A stretch of 64,000 nt of DNA from a virus. Shown piece by piece: positions 27,761-56,401 of the stretch (position 1 is its first letter; every line of letters begins with the position of its first letter). The position numbers were made by a program, and so were the translations under genes. The DNA is taken from the IMG/VR virus record IMGVR_UViG_3300047094_002472. One strand, written 5' to 3'. A model generated the notes under the pieces. The model was not told the DNA's origin and made no database searches. It saw only the letters and a program-made list of their open reading frames with translations.

Positions 27761-27933
27761 CTTAACTTACTTCTTTTTCTTTTTGACTTTCTTTTCTAGT
27801 TTAGCCATTCTTTTTTCTAGAAGTTTAAGATACTCCATTTCTTTTTGGCGATGCTTGTTGTTTTCTTTTTGGGTTTTCTTAAAAAGTTTCTTCCATACGC
27901 TCATAATAATCTCCTATTAATATTAGTTTAAAG

Positions 27934-28289
27934 TGGACGAGTCGGGAGTCGAACCCGAGTCTTGTGATATTTCTAATTACATCTTCTACAAGTTTATTTT
28001 GTTCATGGGTTAAATAGGATTACAGAACAAACAAGATTCATTCCTATCTTACCAACTGCTCTTAACCTACAACCCGTTGGACATTGTAAGTGCAGAGGGA
28101 TTTAACGACAGACTTTTGATCGCTACCCTCATTCGCAATCGCAGTCTGTTACTGCCCGTTTTTATTAGGCAGCAAGTGCTAACTGAGTTGTGCCAGTTAA
28201 AGCATTTGATCCGGTTTTAAAGTGGCCTCCAGATCAACCACTACTTGCTTACATAATTTTCCATATCCAATCGAAACCTTTACTCGCCC
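27934..28289 (-). ncRNA. ssrA: tmRNA; predicted tag (A)GTTQLALAA*
   Basis: GGGCGAG/CTCGTCC-A acceptor with G3.U70; GGTTTCGA D-loop analogue; T-arm TCGGG-TTCGACT-CCCGA; tag ORF 28194-28165. Confidence 0.92.
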
Positions 28290-46634: not shown

Positions 46635-47585
46635 TTAGATAGCGTTCGCAAACTCCAGAGCAGTCGTTAACGCCTTGCTGTTATCGTTCGCGTTCTGACC
46701 GAACCAGAGCGAATCGAGCCGGTTATCGGTCGTGCGACCCTTGTTATAGTTAAGGTATTCATTGTAGCCGTTATAAGCAGCCCACCAAGTACCCCTAACA
46801 CCCGTTGCTGATTGCTTCGGCCCTTCGACCAGAGCAAGAATCTCGTCCATGATATTTCTGGTGCGAGTCTTAACATCTTCGTCGGGCGTACCTTCGATGC
46901 CCAGCATCGACTTAACATATCGACGAATATCACCCTGATTAAAGTTCTTGCTAGCGAGGAACCGAAACTGTTCCGCAGTAGCCTCGAACTGGACATTGAT
47001 ATTATCCATAATATCTCGAACCTGTTCCAGATTCTTCTGGCTGGAGCGAGTGTGTCGAATCCGAATCAACTGCGAACCGCTACCCTTGCTATGGGCCATT
47101 GCCATCGTGTTAGCACACACAACACGAATCGGGGTGTAGCCGACGCGAATTGCAGTTGTACCATCATGGCTGTTAGACAGAAGGATAAACTTGGAAACCT
47201 CATCACCCTTCACGATCTCGCTATTGTCGCGGTTGAGTTGAGCGAGAACCCACACCTTTTGACCGCTATGGAGCGATCCGGCAGTATGAAGTTGGCACTC
47301 GTTAGCATCAAGAAACGGCTGAAACCAATCGAAAGCATCGCTGTTTTGCAGCGGAGTATATCGCGGGCCAACAACACCCAAGATAGAGTTGTCGGTTTTG
47401 CGATAGGTTGCACGAGCCGGAACCGGAGTACCTTCGCTCGTAAACAAATCCTTAAGACCAACCTCCCAGTCCAGACCAGCGGCGGTAATTGCCTCGCTAA
47501 TCGTGGGAGCCTCATCCAACTGATTGCCAAGACCATGCCACGGAGTAGCACCAACAAACATCATCTGTTCAACTGCATGAGCCAT
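46635..47585 (-). CDS. DUF932 phage/plasmid-like protein
   Basis: PWHGLG, AGLDWEV, YTPLQN, LSNSHDG, TPIRVVCANT, GTWWAAYN. Confidence 0.9.
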   Translation of the reverse strand: MAHAVEQMMFVGATPWHGLGNQLDEAPTISEAITAAGLDWEVGLKDLFTSEGTPVPARATYRKTDNSILGVVGPRYTPLQNSDAFDWFQPFLDANECQLHTAGSLHSGQKVWVLAQLNRDNSEIVKGDEVSKFILLSNSHDGTTAIRVGYTPIRVVCANTMAMAHSKGSGSQLIRIRHTRSSQKNLEQVRDIMDNINVQFEATAEQFRFLASKNFNQGDIRRYVKSMLGIEGTPDEDVKTRTRNIMDEILALVEGPKQSATGVRGTWWAAYNGYNEYLNYNKGRTTDNRLDSLWFGQNANDNSKALTTALEFANAI

Positions 47586-47628
47586 CTCATTAACCTTTCG
47601 TGTTATCGTACTTCGTTCAACTCCACCT

Positions 47629-47669
47629 ATTCTACAGTATGTTATCGGCTTGTCAATAGGAAATCTTGC
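47629..47669 (-). promoter_or_regulatory. Composite sigma70 / sigma28-like promoter
   Basis: TTGACA-16-TAGAAT with GCAAG-15-GCCGATAA. Confidence 0.7.
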
Positions 47670-47685
47670 GAAAAAATTTTCTCGT

Positions 47686-47767
47686 CGCAAGGTGTTGATA
47701 CGTAAGGAGTTACGTCACGCGGGGCCGCCCCGCCTCGCCCTAAGTTCTTGGCGGGCCTGGATTTAAG
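47686..47767. repeat. 82-bp module, copy 2 (right box degenerate, overlaps the PRTase stop)
   Basis: Same 29-24-29 geometry. Confidence 0.8.
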
Positions 47768-48246
47768 AACAGTGTGCCAAAGTCACGTTCAAAAAGTTTA
47801 GCGTTCTCGGTGTTGTACGCACACTCATCTGGCATATAACAATAAACGCCAACACACCTAGATTTAGGGCATTCTTCGTAGATAGTATTCTTAATAAATT
47901 TTATAGTAGAACCAGAGCAAACCAGATCATCAACAATAACGTACCTAAAAGGAATCACGCCCTCTATAGCAAAACCACTATATGATTTTGTTTCTGGCTT
48001 TCTAATTACAACAATATGCTTATCTAGCAATTCTGCTATTTGCGGAACAACCATTAGTCCGCTAGTTCCGCAGCAAACGATACTATCAAACTGATTGCTA
48101 ATTCTACGCAGATCGCAAATTGCCTTAATGATAGCCTTATTACGAATCTTATGATTCAATACCATACAGGTGTGGCTAGCACCTTGGATAACCTTACCGT
48201 CTGCCATTACCCTGAAATCGTCTACGTTCTGATTCAGCGTATTCAT
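47740..48246 (-). CDS. Type I phosphoribosyltransferase-like protein
   Basis: GTSG, VIRK, VIVDDLVCSGST (PRPP-binding motif). Confidence 0.8.
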   Translation of the reverse strand: MNTLNQNVDDFRVMADGKVIQGASHTCMVLNHKIRNKAIIKAICDLRRISNQFDSIVCCGTSGLMVVPQIAELLDKHIVVIRKPETKSYSGFAIEGVIPFRYVIVDDLVCSGSTIKFIKNTIYEECPKSRCVGVYCYMPDECAYNTENAKLFERDFGTLFLNPGPPRT

Positions 48247-48249
48247 AAG

Positions 48250-48336
48250 AGTGGATGGTACGATTCGAACGTACTACTTGAGATAAGAAAGAAAGGATTT
48301 ATAGAAAAGAGTCTCGTCCCACCGAGAGGCATCCAC
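48250..48336 (-). ncRNA. tRNA-like element with a large pyrimidine-rich loop in place of the anticodon loop
   Basis: Perfect GTGGATG/CATCCAC acceptor; perfect GTACG-TTCGAAT-CGTAC T-arm; GAGA/TCTC stem with a 28-nt loop. Confidence 0.65.
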
Positions 48337-48340
48337 ATTA

Positions 48341-48529
48341 TTACTCGTCAACAATTTCATCTTCTACATTATTGTAGGAGTTAACCCATTCGTCAACGTC
48401 GTTCTCGTCGTTAACTTCATACAGTTCATCGTCGGTGTAATCTTCTTCCTCCAGAAGATCATCAAACCCACCGCTCATCATATTTTCGTAATCAAACGGA
48501 TAATCTGTTTCTTCGTCATAATAACGCAT
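48341..48529 (-). CDS. Very acidic small protein
   Basis: D/E-rich; SD AAGGAG. Confidence 0.6.
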   Translation of the reverse strand: MRYYDEETDYPFDYENMMSGGFDDLLEEEDYTDDELYEVNDENDVDEWVNSYNNVEDEIVDE

Positions 48530-48578
48530 AGGCTTACTCCTTTCTAGATTCTTATCTTACACCAAAGCGGTCAAACTG

Positions 48579-48992
48579 TCAAGACCCAAGAATTTTTTCA
48601 ATCTCGTAATCAGAAGCAAGATTAATTTTATCTTTTTGATTATTTTTTGGAAATTCTTTTCTTAGGTTAAACAAGGTATTGTTTTCTGTCAGTATATCTG
48701 AGGATACTAGGTACACCTTACCATCCTCTAGATCGTATGCGGCAAAGTAGTCAAACATTGAAGCATCATAATAAAACTGATAGTTTGGGCCACTCTTTTT
48801 TAGAGGTATTTTAATACAACCATCCACCGGTGTTATTGCCTTAGATTGTATTTTTATTAGGTTGCCATCTTTTTCGGCAATAATATCTATTTTAGAAATG
48901 TCTCCTTCTTCTGTGAATACGGAGTACCCCAGTTTAGTTAATGCTAAACCAACACCGAACTGCCCTATATTACCTTTTCTTTTACTGTGCAT
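48579..48992 (-). CDS. PD-(D/E)XK endonuclease (group I intron-associated family-like), free-standing
   Basis: KGNIGQ, GYSV, IDIIAE, KIQSK, FDYFAAY. Confidence 0.8.
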   Translation of the reverse strand: MHSKRKGNIGQFGVGLALTKLGYSVFTEEGDISKIDIIAEKDGNLIKIQSKAITPVDGCIKIPLKKSGPNYQFYYDASMFDYFAAYDLEDGKVYLVSSDILTENNTLFNLRKEFPKNNQKDKINLASDYEIEKILGS

Positions 48993-49050
48993 TATTATCT
49001 CCTAGAGTAGTTTACTAGTAATCTGCTACTCTAGTTATACACCATACTAG

Positions 49051-49123
49051 TGGAGGCGGTGGGACTCGAACCCACGGTTTTCGGTTTAAAAGACCGCTAC
49101 TTTAGCCACTAAGTTACGCCTCC
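49051..49123 (-). tRNA. trnK: tRNA-Lys(TTT)
   Basis: GGAGGCG/CGCCTCC; anticodon loop CTTTTAA. Confidence 0.9.
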
Positions 49124-49361
49124 AAATCGGCCAACCACTGAACCATCTTTTTAGGCTATATTTTCATACTTAAAAGAACACACATCACACCCAGTTTCCC
49201 GATTTAACATATCAAAAGCATCGTTCAGATCAAAATCTTGGGGCAGTTGTAGACGCAATTCATTCTCAAGTTGTCGAGTTGTCTCAACGCCATTCTCAAA
49301 ACAATCAATAACCATATCGTAGAAGCGAACAGTTTTCATATTGGTTTCCTTTCTTTCCAAT

Positions 49362-49403
49362 AGTCTACACTACTGTTATCGGCCTGTCAAGAGCAAAACT
49401 TTA
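49362..49403 (-). promoter_or_regulatory. Composite sigma70 / sigma28-like promoter
   Basis: TTGACA-17-TAGACT overlapped by TAAAGTTT-12-GCCGATAA. Confidence 0.75.
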
Positions 49404-49405
49404 AG

Positions 49406-49476
49406 CAAAGGCGGAAGGAATCGAACCTTCATCTACGGTTTTGGAGACCGTCATTCTACCGTTGAACTACGCCAAT
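49406..49476 (-). tRNA. trnW: tRNA-Trp(CCA), two U.U mismatches in the acceptor stem
   Basis: ACGGT-CTCCAAA-ACCGT; G73. Confidence 0.8.
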
Positions 49477-49502
49477 GTCCGCAACTCTGCGTCAGCCTCC
49501 GA

Positions 49503-49589
49503 CGGAATCTGAGGGATTCGAACCCCCGGAGGATTTTAACCCTCGGCGGTTTAGTAAACCGCTGCCTTAAACCACTCGGCCAAGATTCC
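49503..49589 (-). tRNA. trnS: tRNA-Ser(ACT)
   Basis: GGAATCT/AGATTCC; GCGGT-TTACTAA-ACCGC; long variable arm; G73. Confidence 0.85.
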
Positions 49590-49592
49590 AAA

Positions 49593-49664
49593 CTGCCCGA
49601 CTAGGACTCGAACCTAGAACCTACAAATTAACAGTTTGCCGCACTACCATTGTGCTATCGGGCA
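49593..49664 (-). tRNA. trnN: tRNA-Asn(GTT)
   Basis: TGCCCGA/TCGGGCA; loop CTGTTAA. Confidence 0.9.
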
Positions 49665-49669
49665 AAAAA

Positions 49670-50092
49670 TTATACCGCCACTTCCCTTGGCATAATCTTA
49701 TAAGTCTTACTACGAATATCAGTGCTTGTCATATTATTCTCTATCTCAAAATCCAAAATCTTTGCCATAACTGTCAAGTCATCTGCTATTCTATTATAGT
49801 CTTTTTCGCAAGAACCAAATGCTACATTACTATTATAGGTCAAACAAGAAAGCAATTCGGCCGATATGTTCTCTATAGCAGCAAATTTCATTTTATAACC
49901 ATACAGGTTAGATCTACTGTTATTAGTCATAAACTCATACATCATTATCCCCATATCGCTAATAGAATTATTAAAAGAACGAATAGTAACTTCATTCTTT
50001 TTGATAGTATCTATTCTTTGAGCCTCGTCCATCTTGGTGAGACCCCAACTGCCGATTTCTCTTGCCAAGTATATCGCATTACTTCCAAGCAT
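49670..50092 (-). CDS. Hypothetical protein within the tRNA cluster
   Basis: ATG 50092 after AAGGAG. Confidence 0.6.
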   Translation of the reverse strand: MLGSNAIYLAREIGSWGLTKMDEAQRIDTIKKNEVTIRSFNNSISDMGIMMYEFMTNNSRSNLYGYKMKFAAIENISAELLSCLTYNSNVAFGSCEKDYNRIADDLTVMAKILDFEIENNMTSTDIRSKTYKIMPREVAV

Positions 50093-50110
50093 AATTATCT
50101 CCTTTATTAA

Positions 50111-50181
50111 TTCCGGGGCTAGGATTCGAACCCAGACAAAGAGAACCAAAATCTCTGGTGCTACCGTTACACTACCCCGGA
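50111..50181 (-). tRNA. trnQ: tRNA-Gln(TTG)
   Basis: TCCGGGG/CCCCGGA; loop TTTTGGT. Confidence 0.88.
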
Positions 50182-50182
50182 G

Positions 50183-50255
50183 AGCCGATGATAGGAGTCG
50201 AACCTACAACCCACGGTTTACAAAACCGTTGCTCTGCCATTGAAGCTACATCGGC
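50183..50255 (-). tRNA. trnT: tRNA-Thr(TGT)
   Basis: GCCGATG/CATCGGC; loop TTTGTAA. Confidence 0.9.
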
Positions 50256-50290
50256 AATCCTACATATCATACTCTTGCTGCCAACCCCTG

Positions 50291-50659
50291 TCAATGTCTC
50301 GTCGTGTTCGCTGTCGCTTGGGCCTGCTGTCCATAGTAGTATCCCGATACTCCTTGTGTCCCGTAGGAGCCTCCCAAGGCTGCTTGGCCTTGACTTTGAT
50401 CTTGCCGTACTTGCGGCGTGGTCGGGTATCGTCGTTGTTGTGGAGCGTAATCATGCCATTGTCCATTTTCGTGTAAGTAAAAAACCTTGTCAACATTAGG
50501 GTCGTAAGCCATTAAGCAGTATTGTACCGGATAAACCACCTTTGTCAATACTTCTTTTTTTGGTAGTTTGGGTATTTTTATATCACCCTTTTGATAGTCT
50601 TTTACACCATTATAGGCCAAACCTAACAGGGCAATTATCACCCCTATCCACTGGATCAT
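50291..50659 (-). CDS. Single-TM hypothetical protein
   Basis: SD AGGAG; N-terminal TM. Confidence 0.55.
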   Translation of the reverse strand: MIQWIGVIIALLGLAYNGVKDYQKGDIKIPKLPKKEVLTKVVYPVQYCLMAYDPNVDKVFYLHENGQWHDYAPQQRRYPTTPQVRQDQSQGQAALGGSYGTQGVSGYYYGQQAQATANTTRH

Positions 50660-50727
50660 TCTTTCTCCTCTGCGTCTGATTAGCATATCATACTTATCGG
50701 TATCCGTCCACCCATTCTTTAATTTTT

Positions 50728-50809
50728 TCTAAGTGGTTGAAGTATAAGGAGTTACGAAGAATCGGAGGCGCCCCGCTAGCCCTAAGTGCTTACGCCCAAA
50801 GGGTTTGCG
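50728..50809. repeat. 82-bp module, copy 3
   Basis: 29-24-29. Confidence 0.9.
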
Positions 50810-50816
50810 GTTAGTT

Positions 50817-51059
50817 TTACTCGTCTTCTCTATTAATTTCCCAGCCCGCTTTTCTACACACCTTATTCAATTTGATTACCTGAGTTTCTTTATCTGCTGT
50901 CGCATAGTCTCTAAAACCACGCTCATCTATATAGAAGTATTCATCTAGAACATCGAACTTATTGCTTTCACCAAGAGTAGTTACTGCTGCCTCAAGAGGA
51001 TTTTTACTTGTTGAGTAGATTAGTTCTAGCGTACCACATTTGACATAATATTTAGACAT
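50817..51059 (-). CDS. Hypothetical protein
   Basis: MSKYYVKCG...DERGFR. Confidence 0.6.
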   Translation of the reverse strand: MSKYYVKCGTLELIYSTSKNPLEAAVTTLGESNKFDVLDEYFYIDERGFRDYATADKETQVIKLNKVCRKAGWEINREDE

Positions 51060-51645
51060 AACATTCCTCGCATTTAGGGCAGTCACAATAAGCATCATCA
51101 ACGCCTTGATAGCAAACTTCTGGAAACATATCATCGTCCGTATATCCGATACTTTCTCGTCCAAAGTCAATCGGAACTAATATCCTAGATTTGCCACGCC
51201 TAACATATCCAAAATTACCCTCATGGCAATCAGAGTATTCCACCCCGTAGTCGCTGATTTCTTCCAACAAATCAGATAAAACATAATAGTTAGGGCAACA
51301 TCCAGAATCTATGCAAGACCCCTCACATTCACTATTTCTACACACAAAAGGCTTTGCAATTTCGGTTAAGTAACCCCAATCACTCAAAACCATTTCGGTT
51401 CGATATTTAATCTTGTTATTCTCTATACCATCCACAAAATAGTTAGCAATACGGATTTTGCAAACCGAACTGTAAACCTTTGGGGCAAGATATGGGGCTA
51501 AATGACTTTGAACAGCATGAGCAAACTCGGCCAAACTCTTATTAGGAAAACTCTTGAAACCATATGGTTTTCCAGACAGTTTATAGAAAGAGTTCCTGCT
51601 ACCACTATTCTCATACTTTCCAACATAACTAAATTTAGTAGCCAT
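51052..51645 (-). CDS. Minimal protein-kinase-like fold protein (paralog of 19989-20522)
   Basis: GFKSF, LAPKV, GYLTE, DCHEGNFG, VPIDFG; Cys-rich tail. Confidence 0.72.
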   Translation of the reverse strand: MATKFSYVGKYENSGSRNSFYKLSGKPYGFKSFPNKSLAEFAHAVQSHLAPYLAPKVYSSVCKIRIANYFVDGIENNKIKYRTEMVLSDWGYLTEIAKPFVCRNSECEGSCIDSGCCPNYYVLSDLLEEISDYGVEYSDCHEGNFGYVRRGKSRILVPIDFGRESIGYTDDDMFPEVCYQGVDDAYCDCPKCEECYV

Positions 51646-51653
51646 GATTATTC

Positions 51654-52361
51654 CTAGTGAGCGGGAAACAGTACGTTAGCCAAACCCTTGACGCACATAT
51701 CACAACTTATACTATCCTTCGTGCCGGTGCAAGTGATAACCGAACGACCGCGACGAATTTCTGGACAAGTCACAAACTTCTCACCGTTCAGCACGACCAG
51801 TTTGGGCAACGCTTGCCGCCAAGCGTCGGCCTTAGCCTTGTTCTTTGGTCGCTTCGGGGCAATTTTCATATCGCTATCGCACCACGCAAACATTTTGAAG
51901 CCTTGATTCTTAGCCTCATTCATATCGTTATCGTCGTGAACACTAGCATAGACTGCCATATACTTTTCCAGAGCCACGAGCCGACTATCGTAGATATGAG
52001 TATAGAACCACATATCGGGCAGACTATCGCCACTAGCAAGAATACTCTCGCAAGCCCACGTTACATTATCAACGTAGTCTGTGTCAAGTTGACCGTTGAG
52101 AAACCAATCGCCGCGTTCATGCCAGCGGATAGATTTCTCACGCTTTTTTGCGTCAAGAATCATGGCACGGATTTTGTTTTTCTCCGTGACTACGTTAGCA
52201 AAACCAGCGACACGGGCGTTTTTGTACTGCCGTTCAGTACCTTCGGCATAACAGCCGTTTCCAAGATAATCGCAATCTGACGGGCAGGTATCGCCAACCG
52301 GACGCGAAACCACAATGCAACCCTTACCCAACTTATCATTACCGTCTGCGGTTTTCATCAT
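51654..52361 (-). CDS. GP88-like Cys-cluster phage protein
   Basis: TCPSDC...CYA, IRWHERGD, YTH, CPE...C..C. Confidence 0.65.
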   Translation of the reverse strand: MMKTADGNDKLGKGCIVVSRPVGDTCPSDCDYLGNGCYAEGTERQYKNARVAGFANVVTEKNKIRAMILDAKKREKSIRWHERGDWFLNGQLDTDYVDNVTWACESILASGDSLPDMWFYTHIYDSRLVALEKYMAVYASVHDDNDMNEAKNQGFKMFAWCDSDMKIAPKRPKNKAKADAWRQALPKLVVLNGEKFVTCPEIRRGRSVITCTGTKDSISCDMCVKGLANVLFPAH

Positions 52362-52383
52362 TCTTCTCCTAGCGTGTCTGATG

Positions 52384-52425
52384 ATTCTACACTAGGTTAT
52401 CGGTACTGTCAAGGCATTTTCTTGA
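52384..52425 (-). promoter_or_regulatory. Composite sigma70 / sigma28-like promoter
   Basis: TTGACA-17-TAGAAT with TCAAG-16-ACCGATAA. Confidence 0.75.
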
Positions 52426-52440
52426 AGAAATTATTTTTGA

Positions 52441-52522
52441 CGCAAGGTGTTGATGCTAAAGGAGTTACGTCAAGCCGGGCCGCGCCGGTTCGCCCTAAGT
52501 CTTTATCCTCAAAGAGTTTAGG
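52441..52522. repeat. 82-bp module, copy 4
   Basis: 29-24-29. Confidence 0.9.
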
Positions 52523-52577
52523 AGCAGTTCACACATACTCAAAAACTGTTCAGTAGTTTCTGCTTCGTTTTTCATAG

Positions 52578-52649
52578 TAGCCCCAAGAGGAATCGAACCT
52601 CTAACTAGACTTTAGAAGAGTCCTGTTATATCCATTTAACTATGGGGCC
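52578..52649 (-). tRNA. trnR: tRNA-Arg(TCT)
   Basis: GGCCCCA/TGGGGCT; loop CTTCTAA. Confidence 0.88.
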
Positions 52650-52712
52650 GAAAGACCGATAGCCGCTAGATTACCAGCGGCATATCGGCTTATTATAGCA
52701 TATACGCTAGGC

Positions 52713-52961
52713 TCAGGCAACAGTCTCGGCAGTCACCTTCGCGTTGTGAGCATCTCCTGCCTGCTCGGCAGTCACGCCCGTCACCCTAGCACGCCACACC
52801 TTGTAGCCCTGCTCGCTAAAAGCCTTGATTTCCCCAGCCTTCACATTCGCGTGAACATCGCCAGGAAGCGAATCACTCAGGCACGAACGAATCGAGTCAA
52901 CCACACCTTCACGGTCAAGTTCATCGGCAACAACGTCAACAACAAAACTAAACTTCTTCAT
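52713..52961 (-). CDS. Hypothetical protein
   Basis: ORF behind its own promoter. Confidence 0.65.
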   Translation of the reverse strand: MKKFSFVVDVVADELDREGVVDSIRSCLSDSLPGDVHANVKAGEIKAFSEQGYKVWRARVTGVTAEQAGDAHNAKVTAETVA

Positions 52962-53162
52962 TTGTAAACCCTTTTCCAAAGTGTTATCGAACCAAGTAAA
53001 CCAATTTTACCTAATCAGTCATCACTTGTCAAGAGTCTGCCAGATGGTTTCTGCTGTTTGGCATCTGCTGTCGTCTTGTCGTGTGATGCTATCAGTATAC
53101 AATAGTTATCGGCACTGTCAACCCCATTCGTGAATCATTTTTTGAGATTTCCAAAAATTTGT

Positions 53163-53244
53163 TCTAAGTCATTGGTACATAACGAGTTACGTCGAGCCGG
53201 GCCGGCCCCGTTTACCGTAAGTGCTTACGGCGTAGGGGTTTAGG
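53163..53244. repeat. 82-bp module, copy 5
   Basis: 29-24-29; abuts the stop codon at 53245. Confidence 0.9.
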
Positions 53245-53616
53245 TTATGAGAGAAAACCCTGACAACCCAAAGCCACAAGATCACGCAGCAACTTCTCGG
53301 CCGCTGCTGGCGTGGGCAGAGTCACGCTATTACGACCCTTGCCGTTTACAAAACGACACAGGGTGTAATCATACGCACCCATCAGTTCATCGCTCCAATC
53401 CTTCGACTCCTTCAAGCCCCATCCGGTAGCAAGCCGAATAGCCTTGATGGAAGCGATCCGGTTGTCGGTGGTCATTCCACCGGTAATGGTCACCGTTCGG
53501 TACTGATTCACGCCGAGAGCAACCTCAAAAGCGTTCACGATCCGCTCGTAAATATCCAGATTGCAGTTAGTCGCAAGATTCATGGCCTCACGAACCGTCA
53601 GTTCCAACTTAATCAT
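53245..53616 (-). CDS. Protein with a ribosomal L7/L12 C-terminal domain
   Basis: NRIASIKAIRLATGWGLKESKD...AAEKLLRDLVALG matches the bL12 CTD pattern. Confidence 0.75.
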   Translation of the reverse strand: MIKLELTVREAMNLATNCNLDIYERIVNAFEVALGVNQYRTVTITGGMTTDNRIASIKAIRLATGWGLKESKDWSDELMGAYDYTLCRFVNGKGRNSVTLPTPAAAEKLLRDLVALGCQGFLS

Positions 53617-53617
53617 C

Positions 53618-54031
53618 TCAAATCCTTTCTTCCAAAACGTAAACTTGTTTGCCTTGTGTAATTAAAGTAGCGTATTCGCTATCGTCCCAAATAAACTCGT
53701 TGCTATCGCTTTCTCGTCGCCAGTGTGGGTCACGAATCGGATTATAGTATACCTTTTCAAGATTGTCAACACCAATCTCGTTATTTATTCTAACATCCTC
53801 ACATTTCACCCACCCACTAACATCATGCACACCGGCCTCATGAACCTTCTTAGCCTTATTAGGCTGATTCACCAACTTACAACCAATCATTTCCAACTGA
53901 TAGTAGGCCGGATTATAATAATAAACATCGACCTTCCTTCTTCCCTGCATAATCTTGATTTGCCAGTGCATATAATGCTGGCCTCGTCCAAGATGGAAAC
54001 GGACTTCGGCGTGTAGTGGTTTCGGTTTCAT
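53618..54031 (-). CDS. Conserved phage hypothetical protein
   Basis: RFHLGRG.HYMHWQIK, YNPIRDPHW. Confidence 0.7.
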   Translation of the reverse strand: MKPKPLHAEVRFHLGRGQHYMHWQIKIMQGRRKVDVYYYNPAYYQLEMIGCKLVNQPNKAKKVHEAGVHDVSGWVKCEDVRINNEIGVDNLEKVYYNPIRDPHWRRESDSNEFIWDDSEYATLITQGKQVYVLEERI

Positions 54032-54080
54032 ACTTATACTATACCTTATCGACCAACTCTTGTCAATACCTTTAGAAAAA

Positions 54081-54282
54081 GATACCTATACTGGCCTACG
54101 TCCAGTAGCGTTTTAGACTTCCACCGCTTATAAGGTACCCCAATATTCGCTGACTATACCCACTCAGCCCAAATCCGTAGGATTAGGTCAGACAGATAGA
54201 TTGGGTTATGCCATACTCGGCCTTGCATTTAACCGCGGCTTCTTTGATATCATTCTGCCAGCGGCCCTCATCTATCGTCTTG
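54081..54282 (-). ncRNA. Candidate structured ncRNA (two three-way junctions)
   Basis: Own promoter (54288-54328); no credible ORF; stems GATAGAT/ATCTATC, GGCCGC/GCGGTT, GGTACCT/AGGTATC, TACTGG/CCAGTA. Confidence 0.5.
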
Positions 54283-54342
54283 AGTTAAATATACATCTAT
54301 TATCGGCTAAGTCAAGAGAGAAACTTGAAAAAATTTTTTAGT

Positions 54343-54424
54343 CGTAAAGTGTTGAGAAATAACAACTTAGAACGAATCGGCCCCGCCGCCCTGTTCGTAA
54401 GTCCTTTATTTCCAATCACTTAGG
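54343..54424. repeat. 82-bp module, copy 6
   Basis: 29-24-29. Confidence 0.9.
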
Positions 54425-54686
54425 TGCCACCAGCCACAAGTTCCACACCAATACCACCACACACCACGATCATCTAGCCTATAGGCCATATCGTTGTTCT
54501 CGCCACACTGACAAATATCACTAAGAATTTTCATAAACTAACTCCACATATTTATTAACAAGTTCAGGTAGTGAAATCTCATGAGTACCGATTAGTTCTT
54601 TAGTCTTATCTACATTGTTTTTATTCACAGCGGCCATTCTATTTCTGAAAAAACTCAGAATATAGATCATGGCTTTTTCTCTATCT

Positions 54687-54953
54687 TCAGTCATAAGATG
54701 GATAATCCTTCGGGTATGGGTTTTTAGGCGGTTGTGGTTTGTCTTGTCCCTCGTCTGGCATCCACCACGGAGCATCCATACGATCTACCACACCACCAAT
54801 AGTTCCTTCGCCACAAAAAATAAGATGCTCACAATATGGATCAGATCGGTCTATCTTATATGTTCCACGCCACACCCCAATAGGCTCACCATAATAAATA
54901 ATCTTCTGGCCATTAATAGGGCGACGATAACCAAAAAAACTAAGCCACTCCAT
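54687..54953 (-). CDS. DUF551-like hypothetical protein
   Basis: MEWLS....RP..GQ...WWMP. Confidence 0.6.
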   Translation of the reverse strand: MEWLSFFGYRRPINGQKIIYYGEPIGVWRGTYKIDRSDPYCEHLIFCGEGTIGGVVDRMDAPWWMPDEGQDKPQPPKNPYPKDYPSYD

Positions 54954-54956
54954 TAT

Positions 54957-55181
54957 TTACCTACCCCTTCCAACAATCACACATTTCATACTAATATCAC
55001 TATCAGTATACTTAACACACTCATGAGGGCCATAATACCATTTATCTTCATCATTCACATTGAATACAATATCCTCAGTTCTCAGGCTAAGGTCATTAAA
55101 CCCACCCTCATACCCAAGAGTCAATACTGTCATATCGCCGGGATAGTTCTTCAACTGCTCAATAAGTTCGTTAACGGTCAT
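54957..55181 (-). CDS. Hypothetical phage protein
   Basis: MTVNELIEQLKNYP.D...GYEGG. Confidence 0.7.
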   Translation of the reverse strand: MTVNELIEQLKNYPGDMTVLTLGYEGGFNDLSLRTEDIVFNVNDEDKWYYGPHECVKYTDSDISMKCVIVGRGR

Positions 55182-55184
55182 TAT

Positions 55185-55322
55185 TTAATCCTCTGTGGCA
55201 TCATCAATATACCACTCGTATCCTAGTTCGTCAATAGTATCTTCTAAAACTTCGATAATCTCGTCTGCTTCTTCACAGTCTGGATCAATTCCCGGCATAT
55301 CAAAAACAACATAAACCTTCAT
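55185..55322 (-). CDS. Small acidic protein (45 aa)
   Basis: Manual translation MKVYVVFDMPGIDPDCEEADEIIEVLED...; SD AAGGA. Confidence 0.6.
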   Translation of the reverse strand: MKVYVVFDMPGIDPDCEEADEIIEVLEDTIDELGYEWYIDDATED

Positions 55323-55334
55323 CTGCTTTCCTTG

Positions 55335-55819
55335 TATTAAAACCAGCGAATCTTTTACGATCCGATTCTATAACCCACCAATACCCCGATATTCTGAACC
55401 CTTGGAGCAAGGTAAAAATTGATGGAAACCGCCCACGCTGCTTCACTGCTTTCGGGTACCTAATATCAGGCAGTTTATCAGAGGCAACGGTTACTGGTTG
55501 TATTATTCGGACAGGCCGGGACACCTATACGATGAAGCGCCTCAGTTACTCCGCCTATCCGATTGTATTGGTCGTGGTGAGGACGCTATCCCCCATAGAT
55601 TGGCATTACTATACAACGTATAAGCCCGTTGTCAACCCCGGCGATTGCTTCGCTGAACGAGAGGTTTATCGTAATGGCTTATCCCAATCTAGTCCCTGAG
55701 CATGGACCCACGAAAGTTTGTATTGTTAGGACCGATTGTAGAAGACGTTTCCTAGGACATCAACTACCGCTTTTACCGGCTGCTCGGCCCGACACAACCA
55801 ACAAGCGTTTGCTTGTTCT
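55335..55819 (-). ncRNA. Large multi-branch structured ncRNA, family unassigned
   Basis: Behind a composite promoter (55826-55866); long closing helix and many nested stems (see findings). Confidence 0.7.
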
Positions 55820-55881
55820 TCAATCATTCTACTATCTATTATCGGTTTGTCAATAGGGTTTCTTGAAAAAATATTTTTTGA

Positions 55882-55963
55882 TGTAAAGTGTTGCAGCATA
55901 AAGAGTTACGACGAGCCGGGCGGCGCCCCTCGGCCCTAAGTGCTGCCGTAGCAACAACTTAGG
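55882..55963. repeat. 82-bp module, copy 7
   Basis: 29-24-29. Confidence 0.9.
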
Positions 55964-55996
55964 GTGAGGGTTTCACCGATTGGCGAAGAAGACAGT

Positions 55997-56401
55997 TTAG
56001 ATAAGATGAGCCAGACCCGTAGCGAACAGAGCCTGAGCCCCAACCGGCCTACGGCACTTTTCAGTACGTTCCGCATAGAAGTTGCGAACCGTACCATTGG
56101 GCATTTCGCAAGTCACAAGGTGGCGAGTACGCTGAAACTCGGGATCATTCGCACGATAGCGACTACGAGCATTGAGCCTACGAATAGAGTAGTCATCCAG
56201 AGTGTGAACTTCCACAACCTTCGCAAGATAACGCTCCGGTTCGCCCTGCAAAGGCTGCTTGTAGATGAAATTGTAGATTTCACCCGGCTTAGCAGATGCA
56301 AGCGTACCGTGAACACCACCATAAACAGCATAGGCAAGAGCAGCCACAATAACAGCAGTCACACCAGCCAGAATACCACCAAACAGAAGAACATCGTTCA
56401 T
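55997..56401 (-). CDS. Membrane-anchored hypothetical protein
   Basis: N-terminal TM; own promoter. Confidence 0.65.
   Translation of the reverse strand: MNDVLLFGGILAGVTAVIVAALAYAVYGGVHGTLASAKPGEIYNFIYKQPLQGEPERYLAKVVEVHTLDDYSIRRLNARSRYRANDPEFQRTRHLVTCEMPNGTVRNFYAERTEKCRRPVGAQALFATGLAHLI

What the first reader, a model, noticed from the sequence alone, without database searches (positions are those of the whole stretch)
55335..55819. Unassigned ~480-nt multi-branch RNA with its own promoter, heading a cassette
Seen on the minus strand, starting about 7 nt after TAGAAT: a closing helix TTGTTGGTTGTGT/ATACAACCAGTAA (13 bp, three G.U) plus CGGGCCG/CGGCCTG encloses about 310 nt. Nested stems include TCGTGG/CCACGA, TAGATTGG/CCAATCTA, CATTAC/GTAATG, ACAACG/CGTTGT, AACCTC/GGGGTT, GCGA/TCGC, GTCC/GGAC and TGGGGGAT/GTCCTCA; TACAATCGG occurs twice. 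A second domain (TGATATT/AATATCG; TAGAATCGG/CTGGTTTTA) ends at the SD of the next gene. G.U-rich pairing favours minus-strand RNA structure, and there is no credible ORF. I did not find RNase P, tmRNA, group I or group II hallmarks. Known: phages carry large ornate RNAs near tRNA clusters (GOLLD, ROOL). Inference: a possibly new large phage ncRNA or ribozyme.
Basis: partly seen in the sequence, partly recalled or inferred. Interest (0 to 1): 0.8.

Follow-up and report, generated by a model that had tools for sequence, protein, structure and literature searches.

The report
Modular structured RNA of uncultivated phages
The region is a real, strongly conserved non-coding RNA locus of a clade of uncultivated large phages, but it is a string of four separately folding RNA modules, not one closed 480-nt RNA; two modules form a family that Rfam lacks, and its function is unknown.

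Summary
The promoter is present. There is no ORF and no Rfam match.

Through flanking proteins and DNA patterns I collected about 90 IMG/VR phage contigs that carry the element. It occurs once in each of five genomes rated complete (154-244 kb).

The core (window 55713-55572, minus strand) is a four-way junction. Its long arm holds a three-way junction locked by a pseudoknot. Over 67 distinct sequences, 94% of cells pair, against 37-41% when partners are slid. 35 of 50 pairs show double changes.

Their strands pair locally, and the local pairs co-vary.

The locus reads: early promoter, optional 5' module, core, optional hairpin, then a second conserved junction module (55499-55343). Each module is flanked by AAUACAA. 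In relatives the optional slots hold other hairpins, tRNA-like genes or duplicated modules. The 3' module may be followed by a new promoter, a terminator, further RNAs, or unrelated ORFs.

Most likely it is a stand-alone, trans-acting stable RNA pair. The closest analogue is the species 1/2 RNAs of the T4 tRNA cluster, which are not homologous. Function is inferred, not shown. The element is new relative to Rfam 15. Interest is moderate to high.

The parts
55826..55853 (-). Early sigma70-type promoter (-35 at 55853-55848, -10 at 55831-55826). The predicted start of transcription is near 55819.
   Evidence: 11 of 12 matches, 16-nt spacer. The same promoter, with a CGAT box in the spacer, stands upstream of the RNA in all relatives printed. 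In the simplest loci it lies 7-25 nt before the core.
55728..55819 (-). Optional 5' module M1. It has a hairpin, then pseudoknot-like pairing: S1 is 55799-55794 with 55783-55778, and S2 is 55790-55784 with 55735-55729. An inner hairpin follows.
   Evidence: 18 distinct versions, and S1 co-varies in 17 of 18. S2 is invariant, so it is not tested. M1 is absent from many loci that keep the core.
55714..55727 (-). Linker 1, with AAUACAA at 55724-55718.
55572..55713 (-). Core module, a four-way junction with a pseudoknotted arm.
- P1: 55713-55708 / 55577-55572
- P2 hairpin: 55707-55692
- P3: 55691-55684 / 55603-55596
- Pseudoknot: 55682-55677 / 55625-55620
- P4: 55676-55671 / 55609-55604
- P5 hairpin: 55666-55634
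- P6 hairpin: 55632-55613
- P7 hairpin: 55595-55578
   Evidence: Alignments A1 and A4 and model R1 (188 bits in the window). Covariation. The MFE fold of the isolated core gives the same helices.
55563..55571 (-). Linker 2, with AAUACAA at 55569-55563.
55507..55562 (-). Optional hairpin module M3, with a local 8-bp closing stem.
   Evidence: The same module sits between the core and the 3' module in L025, L033 and L046-L048, and is absent from 28 contexts where the two conserved modules abut. One stem position is seen as U.G, C-G and U-A.
55343..55499 (-). Conserved 3' module, a junction RNA.
- H1: 55498-55493 / 55347-55342
- H2: 55492-55486 / 55433-55427
- Variable arm A: 55485-55434
- Variable arm B: 55425-55375
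- H5 hairpin: 55368-55348
   Evidence: H5 has compensatory changes. H2 changes only through wobble pairs. H1 is invariant, so its pairing is inferred from complementarity. Arms A and B are filled by several unrelated hairpin classes. The module lies downstream of the core in 65 of 72 evaluable contexts.
55323..55342 (-). Linker 4 (AAUACAA at 55338-55332) followed by the ribosome-binding site of the next gene.
   Evidence: One search shows what follows the 3' module in 57 distinct contexts.
55185..55322 (-). 45-aa ORF directly downstream. In this window it has no promoter of its own and is probably read through from the RNA promoter.
   Evidence: no family. It is the downstream neighbour only in the closest relatives.

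Best explanation
Window 55853-55323 (minus strand) is a phage early transcription unit that encodes a string of separately folding structured RNAs.

Two modules are the conserved heart of the locus and form a family of their own. The first is a 142-nt core: a four-way junction whose long arm carries a three-way junction locked by a 6-bp pseudoknot. The second is a ~110-190-nt junction module that nearly always follows the core. Around and between them lie swappable modules: here M1 and M3, and in relatives other hairpins, tRNA-like genes, or second copies of the core or of the 3' module. Every module is bounded by the single-stranded motif AAUACAA.

The most likely mode of action is as a stable RNA acting in trans. 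The transcript, or the modules released from it by cleavage in the linkers, would bind a host or phage protein of the tRNA/translation or RNA-processing machinery early in infection. The closest analogy is the species 1 and 2 RNAs that follow tRNA-Arg in the phage T4 tRNA cluster.

Shown: conservation, fold, strand, modularity, independence from the downstream gene, and one copy per genome. Inferred: stability, processing at the linkers, action in trans, and a protein partner.
For: - **Conservation.** nhmmer finds the region in about 45 of 54 loci fetched through flanking proteins that are only 51-97% identical. A relaxed motif finds 86 IMG/VR stretches. There is one copy in each of five genomes that CheckV rates 100% complete, 154-244 kb, two with terminal repeats.
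- **Fold of the core.** 94.1% of cells pair, against 37-41% with slid partners. 35 of 50 pairs have double changes. The pseudoknot is 99.7% paired, with C-G in 38 and G-C in 28 sequences at one pair.
- **Strand.** Many conserved G.U pairs would be A.C on the other strand, for example G.U in 52 of 67 sequences in P7. The promoter points the same way.
- **3' module.** H5 has compensatory changes and 99.5% of cells pair. The module follows the core in 65 of 72 contexts, directly in 28 and after 56-359 nt of inserted modules in the rest.
- **Independence from the downstream gene.** In 57 distinct contexts the 3' module is followed by a new consensus promoter (16, plus 3 that overlap the module end), by a palindromic terminator or further RNA modules, or by a ribosome-binding site. 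Those sites belong to at least six unrelated ORF families.
- **Company of tRNAs.** tRNA-like genes or low-scoring tRNAs lie between the promoter and the core, or just after the 3' module, in several relatives. The window carries 9 tRNAs and a tmRNA.
- **T4 parallel.** T4 has two tandem stable RNAs after tRNA-Arg, one of them with a T arm.
- **No coding potential**.
Against: - There are no expression data.
- H1 and most of H2 of the 3' module never vary. Their pairing is therefore not proven, and such invariance could instead mean a sequence-specific role.
- In this window and in about 20 other contexts a ribosome-binding site follows at once, so a cis effect on the next gene is not excluded there.
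- The likeness to tRNA is weak. P7 abuts the 3' strand of P1 as a T arm abuts an acceptor stem, but only 5 of 67 cores have a T-loop-like 7-nt loop. No CCA is encoded. ARAGORN and the Rfam tRNA model score nothing.
- No partner protein is evident. Neighbouring genes vary and have no known function.
- The phage genomes lack a CCA-adding enzyme, Ro and RtcB.
Confidence: 0.5

Rival explanations
1. It is a cis-regulatory leader, such as a riboswitch or a protein- or tRNA-sensing leader. The core would be the sensor and the 3' module the expression platform. H1 closing next to a U run would act as a terminator controlling the early genes downstream.
For: - In the window the RNA runs straight into a ribosome-binding site and ATG. 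About 20 of 57 contexts do the same.
- The P3-P6 sub-domain, a three-way junction with a hairpin loop docked by a pseudoknot into an internal bulge, is the kind of architecture many aptamers have. This rests on my knowledge of riboswitch structures.
- Cores occur in tandem in L025, L038/L073, L075 and L097, as some riboswitches do.
- A terminator-like site is called at 55364-55347.
Against: - The downstream genes belong to at least six unrelated families. In about a third of contexts a complete new promoter follows the RNA. In others a terminator or more RNA modules follow.
- Unrelated modules of 56-359 nt are inserted between the core and the 3' module in more than half of the contexts. That would uncouple a sensor from its platform.
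- The junction nucleotides conserved in most cores are missing from the short variants that lack P5 (L012, L014, L022, L026, L034).
- No riboswitch family matches.
Confidence: 0.15
2. One of the conserved modules is a ribozyme. It might be a self-cleaving or processing RNA that cuts the precursor at the AAUACAA linkers, or a catalyst acting on tRNA-like substrates.
For: - The fold is complex, pseudoknotted and highly conserved.
- Identical short linkers flank every module: AAUACAA occurs four times in about 400 nt and is not enriched elsewhere in the window.
- Relatives of this phage do use small ribozymes. Pistol ribozymes score 52-54 bits in L012, L020 and L025, a few hundred nt upstream of tRNA-Arg in the two loci checked with ARAGORN or Rfam (L012, L025).
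Against: - No known ribozyme family matches the region, even at E<=10.
- The linkers lie outside the covarying helices. In the simplest loci the 5' linker overlaps the promoter's -10 region, so it would not be transcribed.
- Nucleotides that might look catalytic vary. The pseudoknot swaps G-C for C-G in half the family, and J4/5 is absent from the short variants.
- Nothing here tests catalysis.
Confidence: 0.08
3. One reading: a single ~480-nt closed, multi-branched RNA. Its 5' and 3' parts would be joined by a 13-bp helix plus a 7-bp helix enclosing about 310 nt.
For: The MFE fold of the whole region in this one sequence contains long-range pairs of this kind.
Against: - The 5' strand of the helix pairs locally, with covariation in 17 of 18 sequences.
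- Changes in that strand are never compensated in the invariant 3' partner.
- Many loci lack the 5' module altogether yet keep that 3' sequence.
- The second helix joins two optional modules that occur independently of each other.
- The z-score of the whole fold is only -1.7.
Confidence: 0.03
4. The element acts at the DNA level (an origin, a recombination or packaging site) or encodes small proteins.
For: Short ORFs of 57 and 74 codons overlap the region. The DNA is highly conserved.
Against: - The pattern of change is compensatory base pairing with strand-specific G.U pairs.
- No frame is conserved and there is no codon periodicity.
- Hairpins are swapped as whole units.
Confidence: 0.02

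Closest known systems
Phage T4 species 1 and species 2 RNAs (rnaC, rnaD; AF158101 70908-71171)
   Same: Both are two tandem, non-coding, structured RNAs of about 120-140 nt. Both are encoded in or next to a phage tRNA array and co-transcribed with tRNAs, and neither has a known function. rnaC ends in a T arm stacked next to a terminal stem, as P7 abuts P1 in the core.
   Different: There is no sequence or structure homology: model R1 scores at most 8.7 bits in the T4 region. The RNAs here are larger, pseudoknotted and modular. They usually have their own promoter and encode no tRNA-type 3' end. The five complete genomes lack a Gp23-type capsid match (that search's control genomes hold no Gp23 gene, so it is uninformative).
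Large ornate phage-associated RNAs (GOLLD RF01998, ROOL RF03087)
   Same: They are complex-fold ncRNAs of unknown function found in phages and prophages, often near tRNA genes.
   Different: Neither Rfam model matches. Here the conserved units are about 140 and about 110-190 nt and fold independently, rather than forming one RNA of 500-800 nt.
tRNA, tRNA-like structures and the tRNA-like domain of tmRNA
   Same: The core has a cloverleaf-like four-way junction. The last hairpin (P7) lies next to the 3' strand of the closing helix. A minority of cores have a T-loop-like 7-nt loop. The genomic company is tRNAs and a tmRNA.
   Different: There is no D loop, no anticodon loop and no CCA. Junction linkers are 0-1 nt. 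The long arm carries a pseudoknotted three-way junction. ARAGORN and the Rfam tRNA/tmRNA models give nothing here.
Candidate structured RNAs catalogued from IMG/VR (Fremin, Bhatt and Kyrpides 2023, PMC10690425)
   Same: Same data source and same kind of object: covarying intergenic RNA motifs of uncultivated phages, including tRNA-like ones.
   Different: I could not check whether any of the 10,006 candidates overlaps this locus, because the supplementary tables are not held. The paper's text describes nothing like it.

Membership tests
Any Rfam 15 family (including RNase P, tmRNA, tRNA, group I/II introns, GOLLD, ROOL, riboswitches, small ribozymes) | Match to the family covariance model at or near its gathering score | tested here: not met
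   The whole window at gathering scores gives only 9 tRNAs and 1 tmRNA, all elsewhere. Region 55200-56050 at E<=10 gives three chance hits of 13-18 bits.
tRNA / tRNA-like structure | 7-bp acceptor stem followed by a discriminator base and CCA (or a CCA-less end matured by CCA addition) | tested here: not met
   P1 is 5-6 bp. The 3' tail is variable (3-5 nt) and then AAUACAA. No CCA-adding enzyme was found in five complete phage genomes.
tRNA / tRNA-like structure | T arm with a 7-nt T loop stacked on the acceptor stem | tested here: inconclusive
   P7 abuts the 3' strand of P1 with 0-1 nt between them. The loop is T-loop-like in only 5 of 67 distinct cores. The rest have a longer stem with a triloop.
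tRNA / tRNA-like structure | Recognised by tRNA detectors | tested here: not met
   ARAGORN and Rfam RF00005 at E<=10 call nothing in 55323-55830.
T4 rnaC / rnaD | Homology in sequence and structure | tested here: not met
   cmsearch with R1, filters off, over T4 68000-76000: best score 8.7 bits, and not at rnaC or rnaD.
T4 rnaC / rnaD | Stable small RNAs processed from a tRNA precursor | not testable with these tools
   This needs RNA data.
Riboswitch / cis-regulatory leader | Constant association with one class of downstream gene | tested here: not met
   57 downstream contexts: new promoters, terminators, other RNAs, and at least six unrelated ORF families.
Riboswitch / cis-regulatory leader | Sensor domain directly coupled to an expression platform | tested here: not met
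   Unrelated modules of 56-359 nt separate the core and the 3' module in 37 of 65 contexts.
Bacterial Y RNA (YrlA) with Ro | Ro (TROVE) protein, often with RtcB, encoded with the RNA; YrlA model match | tested here: not met
   No TROVE and no RtcB in five complete genomes, with positive controls ringing. No YrlA hit in the region.
New family defined here (core, model R1) | Four-way junction P1/P2/P3/P7 plus a pseudoknot between the P3-P4 bulge and the P6 loop | tested here: met
   The window scores 187.9 bits, E 5e-58. Every helix is supported in 67 distinct sequences.

The most novel reading that the evidence does not exclude
The core and the 3' module are a new class of phage-made mimics of tRNA architecture. 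Each has a closing helix with a terminal hairpin stacked beside it and a pseudoknotted arm in place of the anticodon arm. They would be cut out of a bead-string precursor at the AAUACAA linkers. Early in infection they would titrate or redirect a host factor that handles tRNA. Candidates are RNase P, an anticodon nuclease or another tRNA-targeting defence, or a modification or translation factor. On this reading the swappable modules and duplicated cores would be a record of an arms race.
Probability: 0.15. Interest if true: 0.85.

Novelty: new variant of a known kind. Interest (0 to 1): 0.62.

Why it matters
Complex-fold RNAs with several junctions and pseudoknots are rare, and most that have been studied turned out to be ribozymes, riboswitches or parts of RNA-protein machines. 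This is a clean, well-supported new example, with two conserved modules and ready-made covariance data. It sits in the early region of large uncultivated freshwater phages that also carry tRNAs, a tmRNA, tRNA look-alikes and, in relatives, pistol ribozymes.

It offers a second, independent case of the fifty-year-old puzzle of the T4 species 1/2 RNAs: why phages place stable structured RNAs of no known function in their tRNA clusters. The bead-string layout with a fixed linker is unusual in itself. It suggests a defined processing or recombination rule that can be tested.

Tried and rejected
- **Rfam.** Gathering scores on the window, and permissive E-values on the region, on 47500-55400 and on 14 related loci. 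Nothing matched the element.
- **blastn against 50,697 GenBank phages.** No match.
- **Whole genome of the window.** Not held.
- **Genome collection (GTDB species representatives).** The strict 22-nt motif hit four MAG contigs. Two (Acidobacteriota) are chance matches inside a glycosyltransferase ORF. Two are real copies, in a Planktophila MAG and an alphaproteobacterial MAG. I take these to be binned phage DNA, so no host can be named.
- **RNase P idea.** The pseudoknot strands resemble the P4 strands as I recall them. I rejected it because there is no model match, the topology differs (the 3' strand lies in a hairpin loop), and the 'conserved' G-C is C-G in half the family.
- **Mimicry of 16S rRNA helix 45 by H2.** This rests on an 8-mer recalled from memory, which is expected by chance for sequences of this size. 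I dropped it without a test.
- **Targets complementary to the H5 loop in the window.** No more than chance.
- **Partner protein.** The upstream and downstream genes are not the same from locus to locus and have no known family.
- **Literature.** No description was found. The IMG/VR catalogue paper could not be checked at the level of loci.
- **Thermodynamic z-scores.** Uninformative; the antisense strand of the core even scores better.

Full report
**What is at the coordinates**

On the minus strand a near-consensus sigma70 promoter (55853-55826) is followed by about 500 nt without a credible ORF, up to the ATG of a 45-codon gene at 55322. Rfam 15 finds nothing here, either at gathering scores over the window or at E<=10 over 55200-56050. 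blastn against GenBank phages finds nothing either. The fold of the whole stretch is not significantly more stable than shuffles: z = -1.7 on the sense strand and +0.25 on the antisense strand. The single sequence therefore cannot settle the matter.

**Relatives**

Using the two flanking proteins I fetched 54 loci from IMG/VR. nhmmer with the window's non-coding stretch hits about 45 of them with E-values down to 1e-106, although the flanking proteins are only 51-97% identical. The hits break into blocks:
- a ~165-nt block that is nearly always present (the core);
- a 3' block that is nearly always present;
- stretches between and before them that come and go.

A strict 22-nt motif finds 55 IMG/VR stretches and a relaxed one finds 86. 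The contigs reach 244 kb. Five genomes that CheckV rates complete (154-244 kb, two with terminal repeats) each hold exactly one core.

In the species-representative genome collection only two MAG contigs of unrelated phyla carry real copies. Two further motif hits are chance matches in a glycosyltransferase gene. No host can be named. The window also encodes an rIIA homologue, a DNA ligase, RuvB, UvdE and subtilases. The nearest cultured phages are at most 32% identical in rIIA. The complete relatives give no Gp23-type capsid match, but that search had no positive control.

**The core (55713-55572)**

Its structure is a four-way junction:
- P1 closes the module and P2 is a short hairpin.
- P3 leads through a 7-nt bulge into P4, which opens into a three-way junction with P5 (a variable hairpin) and P6.
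- Six bulge nucleotides pair with the P6 loop, forming a pseudoknot.
- P7 is a hairpin that abuts the 3' strand of P1.

I wrote this structure on a MAFFT alignment of 37 distinct sequences, and then on a model-based alignment of 67 distinct sequences. In the larger alignment 94.1% of cells form standard pairs, against 37-41% when the 3' partners are slid by 1-3 columns. 35 of 50 pairs show changes on both sides, and no shuffle reaches the observed values (smaller set). The pseudoknot is 99.7% paired, and one of its pairs is C-G in 38 sequences and G-C in 28.

The alignment was fitted to the model, which favours the structure. The MAFFT alignment gives the same picture, however, and the MFE fold of the isolated core reproduces every helix.

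Conserved G.U pairs fix the strand, because they would be A.C on the other strand. No frame is open through the core in most sequences, and variability shows no codon phase. Five loci have a short form without P5. Five of 67 cores have a 7-nt, T-loop-like P7 loop in place of the usual longer stem with a triloop.

**The 3' module (55499-55343)**

It starts with an invariant 14-mer and ends with an invariant hexamer that is complementary to part of that 14-mer (H1). Inside H1 lie:
- H2, which changes only through wobble pairs;
- two slots filled by several unrelated hairpin classes;
- a last hairpin, H5, that abuts the 3' strand of H1 and shows compensatory changes at four of its five pairs.

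Overall 99.5% of cells pair, against 16-47% when slid. H1 never varies, so its pairing is inferred, not shown. The module lies downstream of the core in 65 of 72 evaluable distinct contexts. In 28 it is fused through a shared linker, and in the rest it is separated by 56-359 nt of other modules. L036 has two 3' modules in tandem. L025, L038/L073, L075 and L097 have two cores.

Printing the flanks of all loci shows how the locus is built.
- In the simplest phages the promoter's -10 box is followed within 7-25 nt by P1 of the core.
- Other phages insert one of several things between promoter and core: the window's 5' module M1, a different hairpin module, or a tRNA-like gene that ARAGORN does not accept.
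- Between the core and the 3' module some phages insert the window's hairpin M3 or larger modules.

Each module is bounded by AAUACAA. This motif occurs four times on the minus strand within 55724-55332 and is not enriched elsewhere in the window.

- **The 13-bp closing helix.** Its 5' strand pairs locally inside M1, with an A/G change matched by U/C in 17 of 18 distinct sequences. Its 3' strand is the invariant start of the 3' module and is present where M1 is absent.
- **The second closing helix.** It joins M1 to M3, two optional modules that occur independently and have local partners.
- **The 'second domain' pairs.** They compete with H5 and with a local stem of variable arm B, and both of these co-vary.

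**What follows the RNA**

I examined 57 distinct downstream contexts.
- In 16, plus 3 where the -35 box overlaps the end of H1, a complete consensus promoter follows.
- In about a dozen, the phage's palindromic terminator module or further structured RNAs follow. Some of these are low-scoring tRNAs.
- In about 20, including the window, a linker, a ribosome-binding site and an ATG follow.

The ORFs belong to at least six unrelated families. The upstream genes differ too, and none of the neighbours has a known function. This argues against a gene-specific cis-regulator and for an independent RNA gene.

**How it most likely works**

*Shown:* an early-type promoter; a string of compact, independently folding RNAs; two of them under strong structural selection and kept together in a fixed order; one copy per genome; frequent company of tRNAs and tRNA look-alikes.

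*Inferred:* the RNAs are stable. They are separated by cleavage in the single-stranded linkers or act as a string. They work in trans by binding a protein.

Both conserved modules share one layout: a terminal hairpin placed next to the 3' strand of the closing helix. A tRNA acceptor/T-arm stack has the same geometry, and this makes factors that handle tRNA the most attractive partners. The resemblance stops there (see the membership test).

The nearest precedent is the pair of species 1 and 2 RNAs after tRNA-Arg in T4. One of them has a T arm, but they are not homologous to the RNAs here. The phage genomes hold no CCA-adding enzyme, Ro or RtcB, so those particular partnerships are not encoded by the phage.

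**Rivals**

- A leader or riboswitch fits the window's own layout, the aptamer-like pseudoknotted three-way junction and the tandem cores. It does not fit the variable downstream partners or the insertions between the two modules.
- A ribozyme is suggested only by the complexity of the fold, the fixed linkers and the presence of pistol ribozymes in relatives.
- The single closed 480-nt RNA is contradicted by the comparative data.
- A DNA-level or coding role is contradicted by the pattern of substitutions.

**Novelty**

No Rfam family matches, and no paper I could search describes the element. A 2023 catalogue of 10,006 covarying motifs from IMG/VR may contain pieces of it, but its tables are not held. 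I rate it a new variant of a known kind: phage-encoded structured RNAs associated with tRNA clusters, of unknown function.

The functional reading therefore carries only moderate confidence. I put the claim that this is a real, conserved, structured RNA family at about 0.97.

Noticed in passing
L012:7250-7312, L020:6624-6686, L025:6900-6962: Pistol self-cleaving ribozymes (52-54 bits; gathering score 34.5) in relatives. In L012 and L025 they lie about 200 nt upstream of the nearest called tRNA, which is tRNA-Arg in L012. None is found in the corresponding part of this window, even at E<=0.5.
   Followed up: partly
L012, L022, L026, L034 (about 120-220 nt upstream of the core) and L023 (directly upstream): A ~100-nt tRNA look-alike sits between the promoter and the core. 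It has an acceptor stem, a D arm and a canonical T arm, but about 40 extra nt in place of the anticodon loop. ARAGORN does not call it a tRNA.
   Followed up: partly
L027:3469-3546; L018:3263-3337; L075:4173-4245: Low-scoring tRNA-like genes (38-46 bits) lie about 90 nt after the 3' module. ARAGORN reads the one in L027 as a tRNA with a two-base anticodon.
   Followed up: no
window 55332-55724, minus strand: AAUACAA flanks every module as a direct repeat, four times in about 400 nt. In some relatives it overlaps a -10 or -35 box of a promoter. Its role is unexplained: it could be an RNase site, a protein site, or a recombination joint for module shuffling.
   Followed up: partly
window 27931-28289, minus strand: A phage-encoded tmRNA (108 bits). 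ARAGORN reads the tag peptide as GTTQLALAA.
   Followed up: no
window 49501-49590, minus strand: ARAGORN calls a tRNA-Ser with anticodon ACT. This is unusual, since A34 is normally confined to tRNA-Arg.
   Followed up: no
window 53245-53616, minus strand: A 123-aa protein has a weak match (23.1 bits, just below the 25.9 cut-off) to the C-terminal domain of ribosomal protein L7/L12. This would be another translation-related item in this early region.
   Followed up: no
window 57827-58138, minus strand: A 103-aa protein matches PF23790 (Kyanoviridae Gp96) at 43.9 bits. This is one of the few links to cultured phage families.
   Followed up: no
promoters in window 55826-55853 and in L001-L048: The early promoters of this phage clade share more than the two hexamers. 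They have an A/T-rich upstream stretch and a CGAT(A) box just after the -35 hexamer. Two sub-types are seen, with -10 TAGAAT and with -10 TATAAT.
   Followed up: partly
L110:5637-5658, L112:3770-3791: The 22-nt P7/P1 string of the core matches exactly, by chance, the coding sequence of a glycosyltransferase motif in two Acidobacteriota MAGs. This is a caution for motif-only searches.
   Followed up: yes
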